A stretch of 64,000 nt of DNA from Stegostoma tigrinum (taxonomy: Eukaryota): positions 93,150,458 to 93,214,457 of the forward strand of contig NC_081358.1 in assembly GCF_030684315.1 (NCBI RefSeq), written 5' to 3'. Below are positions 6,708-35,505 of the stretch, one piece after another. The notes below the pieces were generated by a model. The model saw nothing but the letters and a program-made list of their open reading frames with translations. It was not told the DNA's origin and made no database searches. How positions within the stretch are numbered: the stretch's first letter is position 1; each line of letters opens with the position of its first letter. The translations under genes were made by a program, and so were the position numbers.

Positions 6708-7860
6708 TAGAACATGGAACATAGAAAAGTACAGCACAGTACAGGCCCTTTGGCCAACGATGTTGTGCCATGGATTAATCCTAATCCAAAAATAAAATAA
6801 CCTAACCTACATTCCCCTCAATTCACTGCTGTCCATGTGCATGTCCAGCAGTCGCTTAAATGTCACTAATGACTCCGCTTCCACGACTACCACTGGCAAA
6901 CTATTCCATGCACTCACAACTCTCTGAGTGAAGAACCTTCCTCTGACGTCTTCCTCTATACCTTCCACCTAACACCTTAAAACTATGACCCCTCGTGGCA
7001 GTCAGTCCTGCCCTGGGGAAAAGTCTCTGGCTATCAACTCTATCCATGCCCCTCATTACCTTGTACACCTCGATCAGGTCCCCTCTCTTCCTCCTTCTCT
7101 CCAGTGAGAAAAGTCCAAGCTCAGTCAACCTCTCCTCGTAAGACAAGCCCTCCAGTCCAGGCAGCATCCTGGTAAACCTCCTTTGCACCCTTTCCAAAGC
7201 CTCCACATATTTCCTATAATAGGGCGACCAGAACTGGACACAATATTCCAAGTGTGGTCTCACCAGGGTTTTGTACAGCTGCAGCAAAACCTCGCGGCTC
7301 TTAAACTCGATCCCCCTGTTAATGAAAGCCAAAACACCATACGCTTTCTTAACAACCTTATCCACTTGTGTGGCAACTTTGAGGGAGCAATGCACTTGAA
7401 CACCAAGGTCCTGCTGTTCCTCCACACTGCCAAGAATCCTGCCTGTAATCCTATATTCATCATTTAAGTCAGACCTTCCAAAATGCATCACTTCGCATTT
7501 ATCCACGTTGAACTCCATCTGCCATTTCTCAGCCCAGCTCTGCATACTATCAATGTCTCGCTGAAGCCTGCAATAGCCCTCGATACTATCAACGACACCT
7601 CCAACCTTTGTGTCATCAGCAAACATACTAACCCACCCCTCAACATCCTCATCCAAGTCATTTATAAAAACTACAAAGAGCAGAGGCCCAAGAACAGACC
7701 CCTGCAGGACACCACTCAGCACTGACCTCCAGGCAGAATACTTACCATCTACAACCACTCTCTGCCTCCTGTCAGCCAACCAATTCTGAATCCAGACAGC
7801 CAAATCACCCTGTATCCCATATCTCCCAACTTTATGAATGAGCCTGCCGTGGGGAACCTT
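6708..7860 (-). mobile_element. Young 5'-truncated CR1/HER1 LINE with an open RT ORF, nested in an older CR1 (~6305-6700 and ~7860-9640)
   Basis: ORF 6901..7803(-) has GVLQGSVLGPLLF, FADD and RPHLEYCVQFWSP; (agaacat)n tail at ~6708-6725. Confidence 0.95.
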
Positions 7861-9640
7861 AGTTCTTCACTATCCTGTCTATCTGCAAATTCATTTTCAA
7901 GGAACTGTGAACCTGCACTCCGAGACCTCTCTGCTCAGCAAAACTCTCCAGGACCTTACCGTTAGGTATATAAGATTTGCCCTGGTTTGCCTTTCCAAAA
8001 TGTCGAACCTCAATTTATTTAAATTAAACTCCATCTGCTACTCCTCAGCCCCTTGGCTGGATTGATTGAGGTCCCCTTGTATTCTGAGGGTTTTGTTGCT
8101 GTCCACTACACCTCCGATCTGCAAACTTACTAACCATATCTCCTCGGTCCACATCCTAATCATTTACATAAAATGATGAAAAGCAGTAGACTCAGCACTG
8201 ATCCTTGTAGCACACCACAGGTCACAGGCTTCCAGTCTGAAAAGCAACCCTCCATCACCACCCTCTGTCTTCTACCTTTGAGTCAGTTCTGCGTCCAAAC
8301 AGCTGGTTCTCCCCCTGTTCCATATGATCTAACCTTGCTAACCAGTCTATCATGAGGAACCTTGTTGAATGCCTTCCTGAATTCCATACAGAGCATGTCC
8401 ACTGCTCTGCCCTCATTAGTAATGTCTGTCACTTCAAAAAATTCAATCAAGTTAGTGACATACAATTTCCCACTCACAAAGCCACTTTGACCATCCCTAA
8501 TCAGTCCTTGCCATTCCAAATACATGTAAATCCTATCCCCTAAGATTCCCTCCAGCAACTTGCCCACCACCAATGTCAGGCTCACCCCGGTCTATCGTTC
8601 CCTGGATTTTCCTTACCACCTTTCATGAATAGTGACACCATGTTAGCCAATCTCCAGTCTTGTGGCACCTCATCTGTGGCTGTCGACGATACAAATATCT
8701 CAGTATGGGGCCATCTTTTTTCTCACTTCCCACAGAGTTGTAGGGTACACCTGATCAGGTCCCAGGGATTTATCCACCTTTATGCATTTTAAGGCATCCA
8801 GCACCACCTCTTCTGGAATATGGACATTTTTCAAAATGTCGCTATTTATTTCCCCATGTTCTGTATCATCCATATCCTTCTCCAAAGTAAACATTGAGGC
8901 AAAATACTTGTTTAGCATCTCCCCCATGTCCTGCAGTTCCACACATAGATAGCCTTTCTGATCTTTAAAAGGGTCCTATCATCTCCTTAGTTACCATTTT
9001 GTCCTTAACATATTTGTATAATCCCTTTGGATTATTCTTAATCATATTTGCCAAGGCTATCTCACGTCCCCTTTTTGCCCTCTTGATTTCTCTCAAGTAC
9101 ACTCCTCCTGCCTTTATACTCTTAAGGATTCACTTGATCTCTGCTGACTATAACTGGTCGTTGGATAAACATATGGATGATAATGGACTAGTGTAGGTTA
9201 GATGGGCTTCAAGATTGATTCACAGGCTGAAGGACCTGTACTGCGCTGTAATGTTCTATGTTCTATACCTAGACATACACTTTTCTTCTTCTTAGCCAAA
9301 CCCTCATCTTCTCTCGTCGTCTAGCATTCCCTACACCTACCAGCCTTGCCCTTTACTCTAACAGGAACATACTGACCCTGGACTCTCGTTATCTCATTAT
9401 TGAAGGCTTCCCATTTTCCAGCGGTCATTTACCTGTGAACATCCGCCTCCAATCAACTTTTGAAAGTTCTTGCCTAATACCATAAAAATTGGCCTTCCTC
9501 CAATTTAGAACTTTAACTTTTGCATCTGATCTATCCTTTTCTAATCGCTATTTTAAATTTTTTGAATTATAGATCAGTGCCCCCAAAGTGCTTCCTCTTT
9601 GACACCTCAGTCACCTGCCCTGCCCTATTTCCCCAAGAGT
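7861..9640 (-). mobile_element. Older fragmented CR1 ORF2
   Basis: ORFs 8283..8585(-) (SLTLVVGKLLE, FRKAFNKVPH) and 8700..8942(-) (LNKYFASMFT, KSLGPDQVYP). Confidence 0.9.
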
Positions 9641-12292: not shown

Positions 12293-12550
12293 GTAAAATG
12301 TTCCATGGAGCTTTACAAGAATGCTTCCAAAAAAAACTTGACATTGAGCCACCCAAAAATATTAAGGCAGGTGCTGGAAAGGAACATGTTAAAAGAGGAG
12401 ATGTTAAAAGATAGTGCATTGGAAGGGTTAGACTGAGAATTTTAGAGCTTAACTCCTTACCAGCTGAAACCACTGCTGCTACAATGGGCTGATGAAAGCT
12501 GGAGACTTGCAAGAGGCTATTGTTGGAGAAACCAGATGCCTGAGCCGCTC

Positions 12551-12975
12551 TGTGACATCTACGACCGCGATCTTCTTGTCTTTCTTAAATATGAGATCGG
12601 GTTTCCATAGGGAGCCGTGTTTGTCGATTAGTCTGGGCTCCACATACGATGTCCAGCCGTACTTACTGACGTGTTCCTGCAACTGGTCAGCGATCTTGTT
12701 ATGGCGTTTGATTCGAGCGTTTTTAACGAATGGGCAGTATCCTGAGATGTGTGGTAGGGTCTCATTTGCCATCTCACATCTACGGCATAGTTTGTTTCTG
12801 TTCGGCCTACCTCTAGATATTGTGGTTCTCGTCGGGTATAGATTACACCGCAAGAGCACGCTGTTAATGAATCTAGAGGATTTTTGTTGTACTCCAGCCT
12901 TAGTCCAAGAGTTAGAGATCTTGTCATCTCTAAAGTACTGGATGCCCGTTCCCTGACATTCCAGCTTTTGCCTGA
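12551..12975 (-). mobile_element. Internal fragment of an RLE-type non-LTR retrotransposon (R2/NeSL/Utopia-like): CCHC knuckle plus the start of the PD-(D/E)xK endonuclease
   Basis: In ORF 12479..13069(-): QGTG...CRRC...ETLPHISGYC...RIKRHNKI...EPRL...KPDLIF...VVDVT. Confidence 0.9.
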
Positions 12976-13189
12976 GGTTTATTGGACTCGAAGTGGGGAG
13001 ACCCAAGACCATGGAAAAATTTGAAAATAAGGACAAGAATTTCAAAGTGGCAAGCACAGGGTGATGCATGAGCTTTTTTTTTTAAAAAGAGTTAGGACAG
13101 AAGCAGCATAATTTTGGAGTAGCTGAAATTTAAGGGAGACTATCTAAGAACGCACTGTGCCAACTGAGCCTAAATGTAACAGCTACAAG

Positions 13190-29498: not shown

Positions 29499-29826
29499 CT
29501 ACAGTTTGTATATCTTTCACCAGACTAGGCACTTCTGATTTGCCATGGTTATCATCTGTGTTTTGCATAATACTGCTTTCTGTAAACTGTCCAGTGCCAT
29601 CTTCTTTACTTGGTGGCAAGTTTGATGCTGAGGAACTCGATTTAGAACTTTTCAACATCCAGGGTTTTTGCGTCAAGAGGCATTGACGTGCATCTAAACC
29701 AAAGCGAGTCTGAATGCCGTAGGAAGCTGTAGGCAACACCTTTATTTCTTGCCTTGAAGACCAAACTAGACCAGTAATTCTCAATGAAGTCCATCGGTAA
29801 CAAATGCGATGACACAGTGAGGACAT
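29499..29826 (-). CDS. MTERF3: MTERF3 first coding exon (mitochondrial presequence region); the exon starts at 29848
   Basis: Acceptor tttacag|G, ATG at 29826, donor TAG|gtaagc. The 328 nt join the other exons in frame to give 1248 nt, or 415 aa plus stop. Confidence 0.9.
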
Positions 29827-31180
29827 CTTTGTTCAATTTAACGTGATCCTGTAAACAACAAATGTAATGAGTAAATAGTAAGCCATATTCATAGAACATA
29901 GAACAGTACAGCACAGAACAGGCCCTTCAGCCCACAATGTTGTGCCGACCATTGATCCTACATATTGAGAAAGAAAATTTTCTGGAACACATTTAACAAA
30001 TTCTTCATCATCCAAACCTTTAACACTGTGTAACCTCCACCAACCTCACAACCCAACAAGACCTCAGCCTTCCCTCAGTTCCGAACCCCTGCACATCCCC
30101 AGCTTTCATCACCCATTCCTTTAGCTGAAGGCCCTAAGCGCTGGAACCCAGCAACTCCCCTCCAACCTCTCCCCACGCCACCCGCCCCCAGACGCTCCCC
30201 AAAACCTAATTCCGTGATCCCTGCCACATGTCTTCATATCTCCCTCAGCGGTCTGGCGCCTCCCCGCGTCCAAGATGCCGTGCAAACATCCGGGATGAGC
30301 GGCTTAACTGATGAGAAAAGGCCAGACAGCTGGTGTGCATTAGAACTATGGTAAAGATTATGTTAAAATTAATTTTAAGTGTTTCAAAGCTTTAACCCTT
30401 TGAATACTTACAGATTTGAAATAGAAAAGCAAAATATGAAATGTAGACCATGGGCTGAATTTTCATTCTGGGTTGCAACTCTGGCACAGGTATATTTCCG
30501 GGTCCTGACCCCATCACATCAGTGCCTGATGTCCAACACAATTTGTTAACCTGAAGGCCAGTGTGTCCATCACCAACCAATTAAAAATGATGGCTAGAGA
30601 GCCAACAGTGAGGCTACTGAGCACTGAAAGATTGGTTGCTCACCTCTGACAAAGTTCCACTGTAAATGTAGAACAGGGTGCTGTCGATGTCAGGAGGACA
30701 GAGATGGAAGTGTCCTCTGAAGACCGATTCATAAATTTTAAAAATCAGTGGGACCCCAGCTGCCAGGCCAGCAATGTAAATGGGCAGTCTTTAGAATAGC
30801 TAGAAGCCACTGTGGCTATTGGTAGTTGTGACGGGCAGGGGCACTATGAAAGGTCTCATACTAAATGGAGTATAGCCTCTAGGTTTAAGACAGAAGTCAT
30901 GGTGTAAATCACACTGGCACTGGGCACAATCATCAAATCCTTACTGCATATTGGACTGGTGCCAGAGAATTGGAGACTTAGAAATGTTACACCCCTAATT
31001 TAGAATAAAGGAAGAGAACCCAATAACTGCTGGCCATACAACATGGCATTTGCAGCAGAGACAGAGTGGTTAGCAAAGCATGTGAGATCTTCATCTTCAC
31101 AAACAGAAAAAAAGTATTAAGTACAAAAAGTACAGAAATGAATTTCTGCTGAACCCTTATAAAGCTCTGATTAGGCCGCA

Positions 31181-33554
31181 CTGCAACCTCTCAGTCTGGA
31201 ATATTTGGGACCAAGCCATTTCTGGATTACAGAGAGAGGTTAAAATTCTTAACCACAAGTATTAGAACCAGAAAACATCATGCATATAAATATTTACTGG
31301 AGACACAAAATACTGATAACATTTTGTGAAGTAATAATAAAATTTATTTTACTTATTCAAATATACATATTTATGCTTATAATTTCAAAGTACTGTATCA
31401 AAATGCTGTTGATGACTTAAAGGGAACAAGTTATTCCATACATTGCTTTGTTGCACCAATATTTAGAAGAGGCATAGGAGAAAATCGATGATAATTGATA
31501 GCAAGAGCAGTCAACTCTGGGTCCTTTGTTTCATTGACTCTGCTGGTTGATGGGATCGAGCTCAGCGATGTCGATGGTGTGTGCACAAACGACTTTCCAA
31601 CTTCATCAAACATTTGCTGCAGCTTCATTTGTTTCATGTGTTTTGGTTGCTCACTTATCAGTTTCTCTTGGATCCTGTGTACATGCATTATATCTTGCTG
31701 GCTTACAAAGCTTTGTTGCTCAAGAAAGCGAATGAAACGGGAAGCTAGACTGATCCCCTCTTCCAAGGTAATTTTCTCCCCAGTAGCATTATCTTCTTCA
31801 TTGCTGTTATCACTATCCTCAGACTTGCGGTGTAAAACTACCTGAATTGTCTCTGAACTTGTTACTTGTTGTACAACTGAAGTATTATCTTCACAATTTA
31901 ACCATGTCAAAATGTCTTCCTCATTTAAGTCACTTCCCATTTGCTTGGTACAACACAAGAGATCAGTCACCATTGCCTTGGCTTCACTTAAATTAAAACC
32001 CTCCGAGCTTTCCCCTGTGTCCTCATCGTTAAACACAATTACAGGACACAACTTACGCCATGCATTTTGTAAGGTTCTCCTTGTGACACTGTCCCATGCA
32101 TTTGCCAAACACCACATACCATCTTTGAGACTCAAGGCATTCTCAAAAGCATCAACACCACCAGTATTGTAGCGGCTCACAAGACGACGCAAAAAACTGT
32201 TTCTGTAGTGACTTTTCATTGACCTAATAACTCCTTGGTTCATTAGCTGAATTGAAGATGAGCAACTAGCAGGTAGAGAGGTAGGGAAGACATTATCAGC
32301 ATCTAATTGTTCTCTAGGGGGGTGAGCTGTGCAGTTGTTTAAAAGAAGGAGAATTTTGCAATCTGAAGCCAAGCCAACCTCTCTACAGTGTGCACGAGCC
32401 TCTGGAACAAAATGATTATGGAACCAATCACTCAGTATTTCCTGGGTGACCCTTGAACATTTATTGGCTTCATAAAGCACCGGCATGATTTTCATTCCTT
32501 TGAAAACACGAGGCTTAGGACATTTACCAACAACCAAAAGTTTACACTTATGTGTTCCAGCAACATTAGCACATGCGAGCACAGTAATTCTTTCTGCTGA
32601 TTCTTTGTAATCATGTACCATCATCTCCTCTGCACCAGCAAGCCTGTGTCGTGGCAGACATCTCCAGAAAACATCTGTCTCATCCACATTATATATTTGC
32701 TCAGGGCTAAGATCCTCATCCTTCATTAACATTGCAAAGTCAGTATGTAACATTCAACAGCCCGTTTATCTGCAGAAGTTTGTTCACCAGTAGCCTTGAG
32801 GTGAATTCCGTGCCTATGTTTAAACTTCTGCAACCAACCTTGAGAGTACTCACACACAGAATTAATTTTCATATCAGTAAGAAATTGTTTGGCCTTTTCC
32901 ATCAGCATTGCTCCCGAAATAGGGAGCCCCTCACTACGACGTTGCCTGAACCACTTATACAGGACATTATCATGGTCAGCAGATTTAGCACGATGCAGCA
33001 TTCTGCGTTCATTAATTCCTTTAACTGTGTCACTTTCAGCACAAAATTTAAATAACTTTTCACGCTGCTTCTTGATGTCATAAATTGTTGAGACCCCCAC
33101 ACCATATGCCTCACACAATGACTTTACTGAAGAACCTTTATCTAGTTTATTTATGATTTCAATCTTTTCTGAGATTGTAAGTGTAACATGCTTACGTTTT
33201 GCTGCACTTTTCTTAGATGCCATGGTGAAAGTTCAAAAGACAAACTATATCCTAAGAATAATTAGGTCTGCTCAAAATCACCCCTGCAGAGAGTTTGGGC
33301 GGGAAATGGCAGGCAACAGAGGGGATGAGGTGATCCTGTAGGATGGAAGAGTACAACAAAGTTAAAAAGTCACTCTGAGTACAAGACAAGGTTACAAAGT
33401 CACTCAACCCTTGAAATCCTGCGCTCTCCTCAACGAGGTGAACTCATGCCTTCCCGATTTGCTGCAGCACCTGGGTCTAGATCTGCTCAAAAGATATCCA
33501 GAGAACTGTTTTTATCTTTCTAAACAATAAATTTCCAGGCCGGAGAAGTTGCAG
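31181..33554 (-). mobile_element. Full-length Tigger/pogo-family DNA transposon (~2.37 kb) with decayed TIRs, inserted into a CR1 fragment
   Basis: TIRs at 31181-31201 and 33533-33554 (18/22 aligned positions identical). The flanks rejoin as CR1 'aaagctctgattaggccgca...gagtattg' (KALIRP..EYC). Confidence 0.85.
31431..33223 (-). CDS. JRKL/TIGD-like pogo transposase (HTH_psq + CENP-B HTH + DDE_1), split by one 1-nt frameshift at ~32745; intact gene or recent pseudogene
   Basis: ORF 32726..33223 (KRKHVTLTISEK, LYKWFRQRRSEG, SQGWLQKFKHRHG) and ORF 31431..32753 (IYNVDET, RITVLACAN, LLLNNC, QLMNQGVI) overlap. No internal stop codons. Confidence 0.88.
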
Positions 33555-34000
33555 AGTATTGTTCCCGGTTCTTGTGATCACACGTGAGGAAACATCTAGA
33601 TGTGCAGAAGAAACTTACCAGAAGTGACAGCATAGATGAGGGACATTAGCTGCAAGGTTAGTTTGGAAAAATTGGTGTTGTTCTCCTGGAACAAAGGAGA
33701 TTCAGTAAGAGCTTTATTAGAATATGGCATAAAATAGAGAAGTAAAAACTGTCCAGAATTAGATGATAGTACAAGGGCTAAGGGAACACAGCTGTAAAGT
33801 TTAGGATAAGGGAACAGTATAAGCAACAAGTATAAATGACCTGGAAGATGCTAACAGGTTGCTGGAAGTAGAAACCATCATTTATAGAGAAGATTGAACG
33901 GACGCTACAGGGATTGAGTAAGGAAATGGAATCGAATGGGTCGTTCCGAAGACAGCTAGCATATACTCGAATGACCAAATGATTACGTACTGTTCAGGTT
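33555..34000 (+). mobile_element. CR1 fragment, right half (left half at ~30930-31180)
   Basis: gagtattg...gtgcagaagaaacttaccag continues the CR1 RT C-terminal sequence interrupted by the Tigger element. Confidence 0.7.
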
Positions 34001-34089
34001 CGACAGGCAATCTAAATTAATTTAAAGAATTTAAAAGAGCAGGAACAAGTCAGGAAAGCTGTTAAAAAGGCGTTGGGGTTTGCTAGGCC

Positions 34090-34450
34090 TTTGTCAGGCG
34101 CCAATTAATCTGCAACTGGTGGTTACGTCCATCTCTGAGTAGCACGCCACTTTCGGAAAGAGATATAAGTCTGAGGGAGTTTTCAGAGCGGTCGCTGGGA
34201 TAAAAGATTTCGGTTGGGCTACCTGTAGAGAGTAAGGTGAAGCCGCCCGGAGAGCGCACACAACAGCCTCACAAGTACTCACCGTAATCATTCCGACCGG
34301 GAAACAAAGTGTAGAGACTGAATGAGCACTGCTCCAAGGAGGAAGAGAAACAGTAGCGCACTGGCTGCACGGCACAGGGTTCAGTGCTCGTACAGGCTAC
34401 CGCTTCCTCAGCTCCAAATCGGTGAAGGCGTGAACCGACTAAATCGGAGG
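34090..34450. promoter_or_regulatory. CpG-rich bidirectional promoter / first-exon region of MTERF3 (-) and PTDSS1 (+); candidate MTERF3 non-coding exon 1 ends at 34283
   Basis: Local CpG enrichment and a consensus minus-strand donor ACG|GTGAGT at 34283/34282. The head-to-head arrangement of these genes is known in vertebrates. Confidence 0.65.
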
Positions 34451-35505
34451 AGGAGACGTAGGCCATTCGGCCCGCTGAGACTGCTTCGCTACTTAATCGT
34501 GGTTGATCTATTAATCGTCAACTTCACTTTCTTCGGTCCCCCTATAATCATGGATTCCCTCACTGATATAAAAATATCTTTGTCAGCCTTGGATGTAATT
34601 AATAACTTTATTCCAGAGGGCTTTTGAAGCAATGAATTCCACACATTAAGTACCATGTTAGAGAAAAAAAGTCCTTCACATCGCAGTTTTAAACTCTCTG
34701 GTCCTGGTTTCTTTCACGGGGAAACAACTTGTCCACAATCTATCCTCTTGAATCCTTTAATAATCTTGTATATTTCAATAAGCTTACCTTTCATTCTTAT
34801 AAATTCCAACAAGTACAGGCCTATTTAACCTTTCTCAAAGACAGTCTTTCATACTTGGCATCAGCCTAGTGAACCTTTGCTAGATTGCTTCCAATGCCAG
34901 TGTATCATTTTTTTAGATGAGAGCCCCGAAACCGTTCACAGTATTCCAGCTGTGGTCCGACTAGCGCCTTCTGTAGTTTTAGCAAAATCTCCCTTTTGTT
35001 TTTACTCCTTTCTCTTTAAAATAAATATCAACATTCCATTTGCTCTCTCCCTAGTTAGTGATGGTTTTTTAAGCCATGCTGTTTCTGGGTCCCTCTACAC
35101 AGACTTGAGGACTATCTCTTTTTCTTGTCAGACTTAGTAGGTCTCTGTCTCTCTCTACTTTGTGTCCTACTGGGCCGTGTAAGGAGGTCTCTTTCTCACC
35201 TGCCACAGCTTAGATTCAGGGCGCTGTTTCAACCCATTGCTCTCAACGCAGACTAGCGAGCTATCTGTTTCCCTCTCCTGATAGAGCAGGCTGGAAGGTG
35301 TCTCTCTGTGCATCCTGCTAGGGTGGGTTAGGAATTTTCTCTGTCTCTTTATTCTGATGATCTGGATTAGATGGTGTCTCCGTTTGTGTCTGAACTGAGA
35401 CACATCTCTCTGTCTTGATTAAAAGTGTTTCTCTGTATGCCCCATTGGCCTGAGTAAGAGGTAGCTCTCTGCCTCTGTCTAGAAAAACAAGTGTATCTCT
35501 TTATG

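What the first reader, a model, noticed from the sequence alone, without database searches (positions are those of the whole stretch)
31181..33554. Candidate domesticated Tigger transposase (JRKL/TIGD-like) with a disabled catalytic triad at the MTERF3 5' end
Seen in sequence: the TIRs have drifted (18/22 match, no clean TA TSD) and the host CR1 is heavily decayed. Yet the ~597-codon frame has no stop codon and only one 1-nt lesion. Both DNA-binding HTH domains look intact. The first Asp (DET, 32684-32682) is kept, while the second and third are both Asn (AAC at 32339-32337 in LLLNNC and at 32240-32238 in LMNQG), with the DD32D spacing preserved. Established knowledge: CENP-B, JRK, JRKL and the TIGDs are domesticated pogo transposases that often lose DDD residues. 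Inference: this may be a lineage-specific domestication in a shark, still recent enough that TIRs are recognisable. I know of no such gene at the human MTERF3/PTDSS1 locus. Caveat: CpG decay may inflate TIR divergence.
Basis: partly seen in the sequence, partly recalled or inferred. Interest (0 to 1): 0.8.

Follow-up and report, generated by a model that had tools for sequence, protein, structure and literature searches.

The report
Shark-tamed Tigger gene inside MTERF3
An old jumping-gene enzyme inserted in the first intron of the mitochondrial regulator gene MTERF3 has stayed intact across several shark orders and likely became a host DNA-binding gene, but it lost two catalytic residues in one shark group and is frameshifted in this genome.

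Summary
The element is real: a single-copy Tigger (pogo) transposon in intron 1 of MTERF3, same strand, splitting a decayed CR1. Domestication is supported, but it is ancient, not recent. Open 595-598 aa orthologues exist in bamboo/epaulette sharks, white shark and two catsharks, and all 8 proteins keep D-D32-D. Catshark and bamboo-shark records place them at MTERF3. Sibling copies in this genome are 66-86% identical and stop-ridden. The D,N,N triad is shared with organism B and the published whale-shark protein, both in frame. The 1-nt frameshift is seen only in this species (labelled zebra shark). Window-versus-B dN/dS is 0.46-0.65 overall but about 1 in the DNA-binding and DDE parts, so this allele is probably a young pseudogene. 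Contigs show that the element's first 140-nt exon, with its ATG, also splices into MTERF3, giving a 12-codon upstream ORF. It is not JRK, JRKL or TIGD2; Gao et al. 2020 filed the whale-shark protein under JRK. A new member of a known kind; function untested.

The parts
31179..33556 (-). Tigger (pogo) element, full length, single copy, in MTERF3 intron 1
33533..33558 (-). 5' terminal inverted repeat (33556-33533) with flanking TA (33558-33557)
31179..31201 (-). 3' terminal inverted repeat; 19/24 to the 5' TIR with one gap (organisms B and C have the extra base); no TA beside it
33196..33335 (-). 140-nt exon inside the element: acceptor AG 33337-33336, transposase ATG 33223 (CACCATGG), donor GT 33195-33194; spliced to upstream exons and to MTERF3 exon 2
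   Evidence: joint in X16, X17, X6; loose ends in X5, X6
32726..33223 (-). Transposase frame 1: 160 native codons with both HTH domains, then 5 out-of-frame codons and a stop (165 aa)
32743..32744 (-). 1-nt deletion (frameshift), present in run X2 of this species, absent from organisms B and C
31431..32741 (-). Transposase frame 2: DDE_1 domain and C-terminal region, 436 codons, no stop; triad D 32684-32682, N 32339-32337, N 32240-32238
31343..31348 (-). Only AATAAA/ATTAAA hexamer in 31433-31100; candidate poly(A) signal, use not shown
29499..29848 (-). MTERF3 first coding exon (acceptor 29850-29849, ATG 29826); the spliced 12-codon uORF stops 11 nt before this ATG
33619..33648 (-). 3' end of a further 5'-UTR exon (donor GT 33618-33617, inside the CR1 relic) joined to the 140-nt exon in run X5; its 5' end not mapped
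34001..34500 (-). CpG island with MTERF3 first exon(s) (donors at 34222 and 34282), head to head with a PTDSS1-like gene on the + strand (gene name recalled from its sequence, not from a call)
31137..31178 (+). Decayed CR1 reverse-transcriptase relic, left part
   Evidence: E 0.023
33557..33727 (+). Decayed CR1 reverse-transcriptase relic, right part
   Evidence: E 0.005

Best explanation
This is a Tigger transposase gene that sits in MTERF3 intron 1, is intact in sharks of three orders and shares MTERF3's upstream exons; it was likely domesticated as a non-mobile DNA-binding protein, and the frameshifted copy in this genome is probably a young pseudogene of it. Steps: (1) shown: one copy, nested in a CR1 relic, same strand as MTERF3. 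(2) shown by contigs: upstream exons splice to an acceptor inside the element, and the exon then either uses a donor in codon 10 to join MTERF3 or runs on into the transposase frame. (3) inferred: the run-on form is an alternative last exon that makes the ~597-aa protein, driven by the MTERF3 CpG-island promoter. (4) inferred: the protein works through its tandem CENP-B-type HTH domains as a chromatin or transcription regulator, or as a repressor of its own family, and cutting is dispensable (about 0.55 for this step). (5) shown: both distal Asp became Asn in the ancestor of this species, organism B and whale shark, and the frame later broke in this species alone. (6) predicted: the spliced form carries a 12-codon uORF that would lower MTERF3 translation.
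For: Orthologues: 8 open proteins of 595-598 aa from 6 species, 68-83% identical where scored, one clade with support 100 that follows the species tree. Place: S. canicula accession adjacent to MTERF3, S. torazame within 4 numbers, C. punctatum named an MTERF3 isoform, white shark on the same contig. Neutral control: sibling copies carry 8 stops in 261, 21 in 485, 5 in 151 and 5 in 126 aligned codons. On the orthologue tree neutrality predicts about 19-21 stops and 28 frameshifts; 0 and 1 are seen. In the D-D-D lineages 7 of 83 changes hit family-conserved columns against 22 expected (p 2.5e-5). White shark vs catshark: DNA-binding region 92.4% identical, DDE 81.8%, C-terminal 78.9%, MTERF3 itself 88.9%. 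D,N,N with an open frame in organism B and whale shark. In that clade 4.3-7.5 lesions are expected and 1 is seen (P 0.005-0.07). Splice joints in 3 runs of 2 other organisms and loose ends in 1 run of this species.
Against: No DNA of the distant orthologues was available, so no deep dN/dS; only annotated, hence open, orthologues can be found by protein search. Window vs B: dN/dS 0.88-1.23 in the DNA-binding part (10 N:3 S) and 0.90-1.25 in DDE (17:5); the whole-frame signal (37:21; p 0.004-0.077 by transition bias) comes from the C-terminal third, where the synonymous rate is high rather than the nonsynonymous rate low. Synonymous sites of the first two regions also fall below the flank rate (8/300 vs 65/1090), so the flank comparison is confounded. 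Contig depth over the frame is close to intron depth in X16 and X6 and cannot show a mature mRNA. No protein, binding or knockout data. White-shark accessions are not adjacent to MTERF3 (nor are this species' own).
Confidence: 0.75

Rival explanations
1. The allele in this window is not dead: the frameshift falls just after the second HTH domain, so it makes a 165-aa DNA-binding-only protein from a last exon that would escape splice-junction-dependent decay.
For: Both HTH domains end by residue 142 and the break is after codon 160; strong ATG context; run X5 of this species has contigs over parts of the frame.
Against: On this species' branch the DNA-binding part has 7 N:2 S changes (dN/dS 0.9-1.3), including H115L and T75M; the part behind the break shows the stronger constraint (6:8), which fits a late break rather than selection for the short form.
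Confidence: 0.15
2. In the D-D-D lineages the protein is still a catalytically competent transposase or endonuclease with a host role.
For: All three Asp and their motifs are kept in 8 of 8 proteins; 0 of 22 changes on the bamboo-shark stem hit conserved columns.
Against: JRK also keeps DD32D/E (PMC7386202 Table 1), so a kept triad shows no catalysis; the clade of this species kept the frame after losing two Asp; TIR relics in this genome are degenerate (1 of 24 hits without mismatch).
Confidence: 0.15
3. Selection acts only on the element's 5' exon as a regulatory part of the MTERF3 5' UTR; the long frame is a passenger.
For: The exon is spliced into MTERF3 in all three organisms laid; dN/dS near 1 over codons 1-390 between this species and B.
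Against: A 140-nt exon cannot keep 1.8 kb open over about 0.6 amino-acid changes per site of tree length; changes avoid conserved columns far from the exon.
Confidence: 0.07
4. The frameshift is an assembly error and this species has an intact D,N,N gene.
For: It is a one-base change in an AA run; RefSeq flags the model LOW QUALITY; X2 may be the source of the assembly.
Confidence: 0.05
5. A neutral transposon fossil that is open by chance, or a young family.
For: TIRs are still visible; dN/dS near 1 in two of three regions in the nearest comparison.
Against: No other copy above 86% identity among 21 DNA matches; siblings are full of stops; P of no stop on the orthologue tree about 1e-8 to 1e-9.
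Confidence: 0.03

Closest known systems
JRK (jerky), Tigger-derived domesticated gene
   Same: CENP-B_N + HTH_Tnp_Tc5 + DDE_1, DD32D spacing, full transposase frame (PMC7386202 Table 1); RefSeq names the orthologues 'jerky protein homolog'.
   Different: Separate clade. This genome has another open gene (L023, 40% identical to the white-shark orthologue) that groups with the mammalian JRK-type protein P0102. Different locus.
JRKL, TIGD2, TIGD7, CENPBD1
   Same: Same domain plan; several lost the third Asp (DD34D/N, DD34S, DD34N, DD32G; PMC7386202 Table 1).
   Different: Spacing DD34 in JRKL, TIGD2 and TIGD7; reported there as mammalian domestications. Mammalian JRKL/TIGD2/TIGD7 sequences were not identified in my tree.
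Row 'JRK-rhityp' XP_020373306.1 in Gao et al. 2020 Table S2
   Same: It is the whale-shark orthologue of this gene by sequence (read by eye): 595 aa, N at both distal triad positions.
   Different: The table files it under JRK and labels it DD32D; the text calls cartilaginous-fish JRK hits pseudogenes. No separate gene, locus or splice link is recognised in the parts I read.
PGBD3 in CSB intron 5
   Same: Intronic domesticated DNA transposon used as an alternative last exon of a host gene, with dispersed relics of its family (abstract of PMC2268245).
   Different: piggyBac, not pogo; makes a fusion protein. Here the host exons are non-coding, no fusion appears among 9 MTERF3 proteins, and the element instead adds a uORF exon to the host mRNA.
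CENP-B
   Same: Only solved relative found: DNA-binding domain 1hlv_A, E 2e-7, residues 11-138.
   Different: pogoR-derived, mammalian, triad not recognisable (PMC7386202).

Membership tests
Tigger/pogo DNA transposon | CENP-B_N + HTH_Tnp_Tc5 + DDE_1 transposase | tested here: met
Tigger/pogo DNA transposon | TIRs and TA target duplication | tested here: met
   19/24 TIR, TA on one side here; TA-flanked motif found 24 times vs 1 control
Tigger/pogo DNA transposon | DDD triad, DD29-56D | tested here: not met
   D,N,N with spacing 32 in this window; met in 8 of 8 orthologues outside its group
Domesticated transposase gene (criteria of PMC7386202) | Single copy, not a multi-copy family | tested here: met
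   two tandem-like copies in bamboo/epaulette sharks
Domesticated transposase gene (criteria of PMC7386202) | Orthologues at one locus across species | tested here: met
   accession adjacency or shared gene model in 3 species, same contig in a fourth, shared flanks in organisms B and C
Domesticated transposase gene (criteria of PMC7386202) | Ka/Ks significantly below 1 | tested here: inconclusive
   0.46-0.65 vs organism B, p 0.004-0.077; near 1 over codons 1-390; deep DNA not available; protein-level tests support constraint
Domesticated transposase gene (criteria of PMC7386202) | Intact reading frame | tested here: not met
   frameshift in this species; met in organism B, whale shark and 8 other proteins
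Domesticated transposase gene | Expressed as mRNA and protein, host function | not testable with these tools
   splice joints seen in contigs only; no raw RNA reads or proteomics
JRK | Falls in the JRK clade | tested here: not met
   (quick tree); L023 occupies that clade in this genome
JRKL / TIGD2 | DD34D/N or DD34S spacing | tested here: not met
   spacing 32 vs PMC7386202 Table 1

The most novel reading that the evidence does not exclude
Galeomorph sharks carry their own domesticated pogo transposase that has stayed catalytically competent in white sharks, catsharks and bamboo sharks and is coupled to mitochondrial gene control: one exon either yields the transposase or places a uORF in front of MTERF3. 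The same gene can be followed through active, catalytically dead and truncated states in living species.
Probability: 0.15. Interest if true: 0.8.

Novelty: new member of a known kind. Interest (0 to 1): 0.45.

Why it matters
The 12 pogo-derived vertebrate genes listed by Gao et al. 2020 are tetrapod-, lobe-fin- or mammal-centred, and their shark hits were called pseudogenes. This adds an independent, shark-restricted domestication that is annotated under four different names. It offers a natural series (D-D-D open, D-N-N open, D-N-N frameshifted, duplicated) for asking whether a tamed transposase needs catalysis. It also shows a transposon exon adding a uORF to a mitochondrial regulator's mRNA. 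It is a known kind of event, and the allele in this window is probably the dying one.

Tried and rejected
No RNA holder was on record; runs marked RNA? or ? were laid as contigs and cannot rank expression. ESM Atlas returned only generic jerky/TIGD clusters and no usable range. Search for a transposase-MTERF3 in-frame fusion: none among 9 MTERF3 proteins, and the spliced frame is offset by 2 with a stop. The C-terminal tail was rejected as an orthology marker because sibling copies share it. Whether the splice acceptor came with the transposon: two sibling copies are too decayed. No orthologue from Heptranchias, Pristiophorus or rays among the best 120 of 231 hits, though MTERF3 of the first two is in the collection; the whale-shark protein and any basking-shark orthologue were also not returned, so this absence is weak. 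Blastn of the flanks found no CR1 partner. Reinitiation at ATGs just behind the break was considered and not tested. Earlier scan findings: none by sequence or words. Paper searches for this gene: 0 papers; 1; 13 listed, none with MTERF3; listings unrelated. The careful tree did not finish; the quick tree was used. No structure or complex was predicted.

Full report
Observation. The element lies on the minus strand. [quoted passage not shown] The triad reads D, N, N with 32 residues between the last two. A TA-flanked TIR pattern occurs 24 times in the genome with up to 2 mismatches against 1 for the reversed control, and only 1 of the 24 is mismatch-free. Two weak CR1 RT pieces abut the element and are contiguous in the query. 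The C-terminal frame is 100% identical to a RefSeq model labelled Stegostoma tigrinum, LOW QUALITY.

Copy number. A DNA search of the own genome gave 21 matches: the locus itself and 20 pieces at 66-86% identity. A protein search gave 73 matches; besides this locus only two have long open frames (L023, L025; 40% and 32% identical, which used a stricter first look, so counts are a floor). Sibling copies carry 8 stops in 261 aligned codons (L003), 21 in 485 (L028), 5 in 151 (L027) and 5 in 126 (L005). The family is old and dead here.

Orthologues. Searches returned eight open proteins of 595-598 aa: two each from Chiloscyllium punctatum and Hemiscyllium ocellatum, one each from C. plagiosum, Carcharodon carcharias, Scyliorhinus torazame and S. 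canicula. All 8 keep D-D32-D. With the window's model they form one clade (support 100, stem 0.45) that follows the species tree, apart from the clade of mammalian JRK-type P0102, where L023 falls (41 rows, quick tree). Position: S. canicula XP_038664895 precedes MTERF3 XP_038664896; S. torazame XP_072324184 is near MTERF3 XP_072324188; C. punctatum's proteins are named MTERF3 isoforms X1 and X2; the white-shark gene is on the MTERF3 contig but its accession is not adjacent, as is also true for this species. Organisms B and C share the flanks directly. The age of the split among these orders, roughly 200 million years, is recalled and comes from no call.

History of the lesions. Organisms B and C both have the base that this window lacks (4 of 4 runs). 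All 37 differences of B's contig over 31952-33224 are listed, and none falls on 32339 or 32240, so B is D,N,N and in frame. The whale-shark protein XP_020373306.1 in Gao et al.'s Table S2 is 595 aa and D,N,N (cell cut after about 350 residues); it lacks two residues where organism C lacks 6 nt, so C is probably that species. Run X2 of the window's species carries the frameshift in one contig but may be the assembly's source. The order of events is therefore insertion, long retention with D-D-D, two Asp-to-Asn changes in one carpet-shark group, then a frameshift in this species.

Selection. On the orthologue tree (0.60 amino-acid changes per site) neutrality predicts 18.5-20.7 stops and about 28 frameshifts, using 0.08 indels per substitution taken from sibling copies; 0 and 1 are seen. 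Protein search finds only annotated genes, but that bias cannot cover such odds. Within residues 1-400, changes in the D-D-D lineages hit family-conserved columns 7 of 83 times against 26.9% expected (p 2.5e-5); per branch only the bamboo-shark stem (0/22) and the internal branch (1/26) are significant, not catshark (4/23) or white shark (2/12). The window's lineage hits them 5 of 20 times, as neutrality expects (difference p 0.053). Between white shark and catshark the DNA-binding region is 92.4% identical, above MTERF3's 88.9%. By region: DNA-binding 10:3 and DDE 17:5 (about 1), C-terminal 10:13 (0.19-0.28), the last driven by a high synonymous rate. The frame differs at 58/1788 against 65/1090 in flanks (p 0.0006), but synonymous sites of the first two regions are also low. 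In the D,N,N clade 4.3-7.5 lesions are expected and 1 is seen (C's count is estimated, and 17 rows were hidden). Reading: firm constraint in deep branches, weak or relaxed constraint after triad loss, a late break here. This species' branch also changed near-invariant P327 and A221.

Transcription. The element is in MTERF3 intron 1, same strand. Contigs of X16, X17 and X6 join the donor at 33195, inside codon 10, to the MTERF3 acceptor at 29849; X6 also joins exon 1 directly to that acceptor. Loose ends join the element's acceptor (33337-33336) to exon 1 in X6 and to a further exon ending at 33619 in X5, a run of this species. Other contigs run from the exon into the frame; in X6 the depths are 64.6 for the exon, 37.5 towards MTERF3 and 20.3 into the frame, but intron contigs reach 14.3 and contig depth cannot measure level. 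In the spliced form the transposase ATG, the only one in the exon, opens MASKKSAAKRSR-stop, ending 11 nt before the MTERF3 ATG. That such a uORF lowers downstream translation is general knowledge, not tested here.

Mechanism. Most likely a promoter-sharing alternative last exon that gives a nuclear DNA-binding protein, with cutting dispensable. The expression route is partly shown; the molecular role is inferred from domain conservation and from the survival of the frame after triad loss.

Literature. PMC7386202: passages, section 9, a search of its 8 supplements and part 11 of 86 of supplement 5. PMC2268245: abstract and outline. PMC7677710: three passages, with no date for the split needed. 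Others: search listings only. Searches found no paper that treats this gene as a distinct domestication; most subscription journals and bioRxiv supplements were not covered.

Verdict. Observation confirmed, interpretation partly supported. New member of a known kind; interest 0.45.

Noticed in passing
P0002/P0026 and P0025/P0028: Bamboo and epaulette sharks have two intact copies on one contig; one C. punctatum copy pairs with one H. ocellatum copy (support 97), so the duplication predates their split.
   Followed up: partly
L023 (G000:C45:24420903-24422519): Open 589-aa jerky-type gene with D-D-D motifs that groups with whale-shark and bamboo-shark proteins in the JRK-type clade: a second conserved pogo-derived gene in sharks, where Gao et al. 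report only JRK pseudogenes.
   Followed up: partly
L025 (G000:C35:9618927-9620165): Open 560-aa TIGD1/CENPBD1-like frame (likeness recalled); third triad position reads L, like the whale-shark Tigger row labelled DD32L in the supplement. Possibly a third shark domestication.
   Followed up: no
P0042, P0048, P0049, P0054, P0062, P0063: Skate 'jerky' proteins and rodent 'jerky-like' proteins form one clade (support 100) apart from the JRK-type clade; horizontal transfer or a separate gene is possible.
   Followed up: no
window 33335 and 29848, minus strand: The element's acceptor and the MTERF3 exon 2 acceptor are both TACAG followed by GATCAC.
   Followed up: no
window 29890-30337: 448 nt absent from organism C (joint in X12 and X17): an insertion in this species' line, starting with a high-copy repeat, 40 nt from the MTERF3 acceptor.
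   Followed up: no
L011 about 1500-1760: Short non-autonomous relic with both ends of the family; 18 further matches at 70-95% over short stretches.
   Followed up: partly
window 32733-32725, minus strand: A change on this species' branch (K165M) makes a new ATG just behind the frameshift, and the stop of frame 1 overlaps the ATG of codon 167 (TAATG).
   Followed up: no
window 6901-7866 and 12479-13081, minus strand: Open CR1-type RT frame of 321 codons and a 200-codon frame resembling the end of another non-LTR element (likeness recalled).
   Followed up: no
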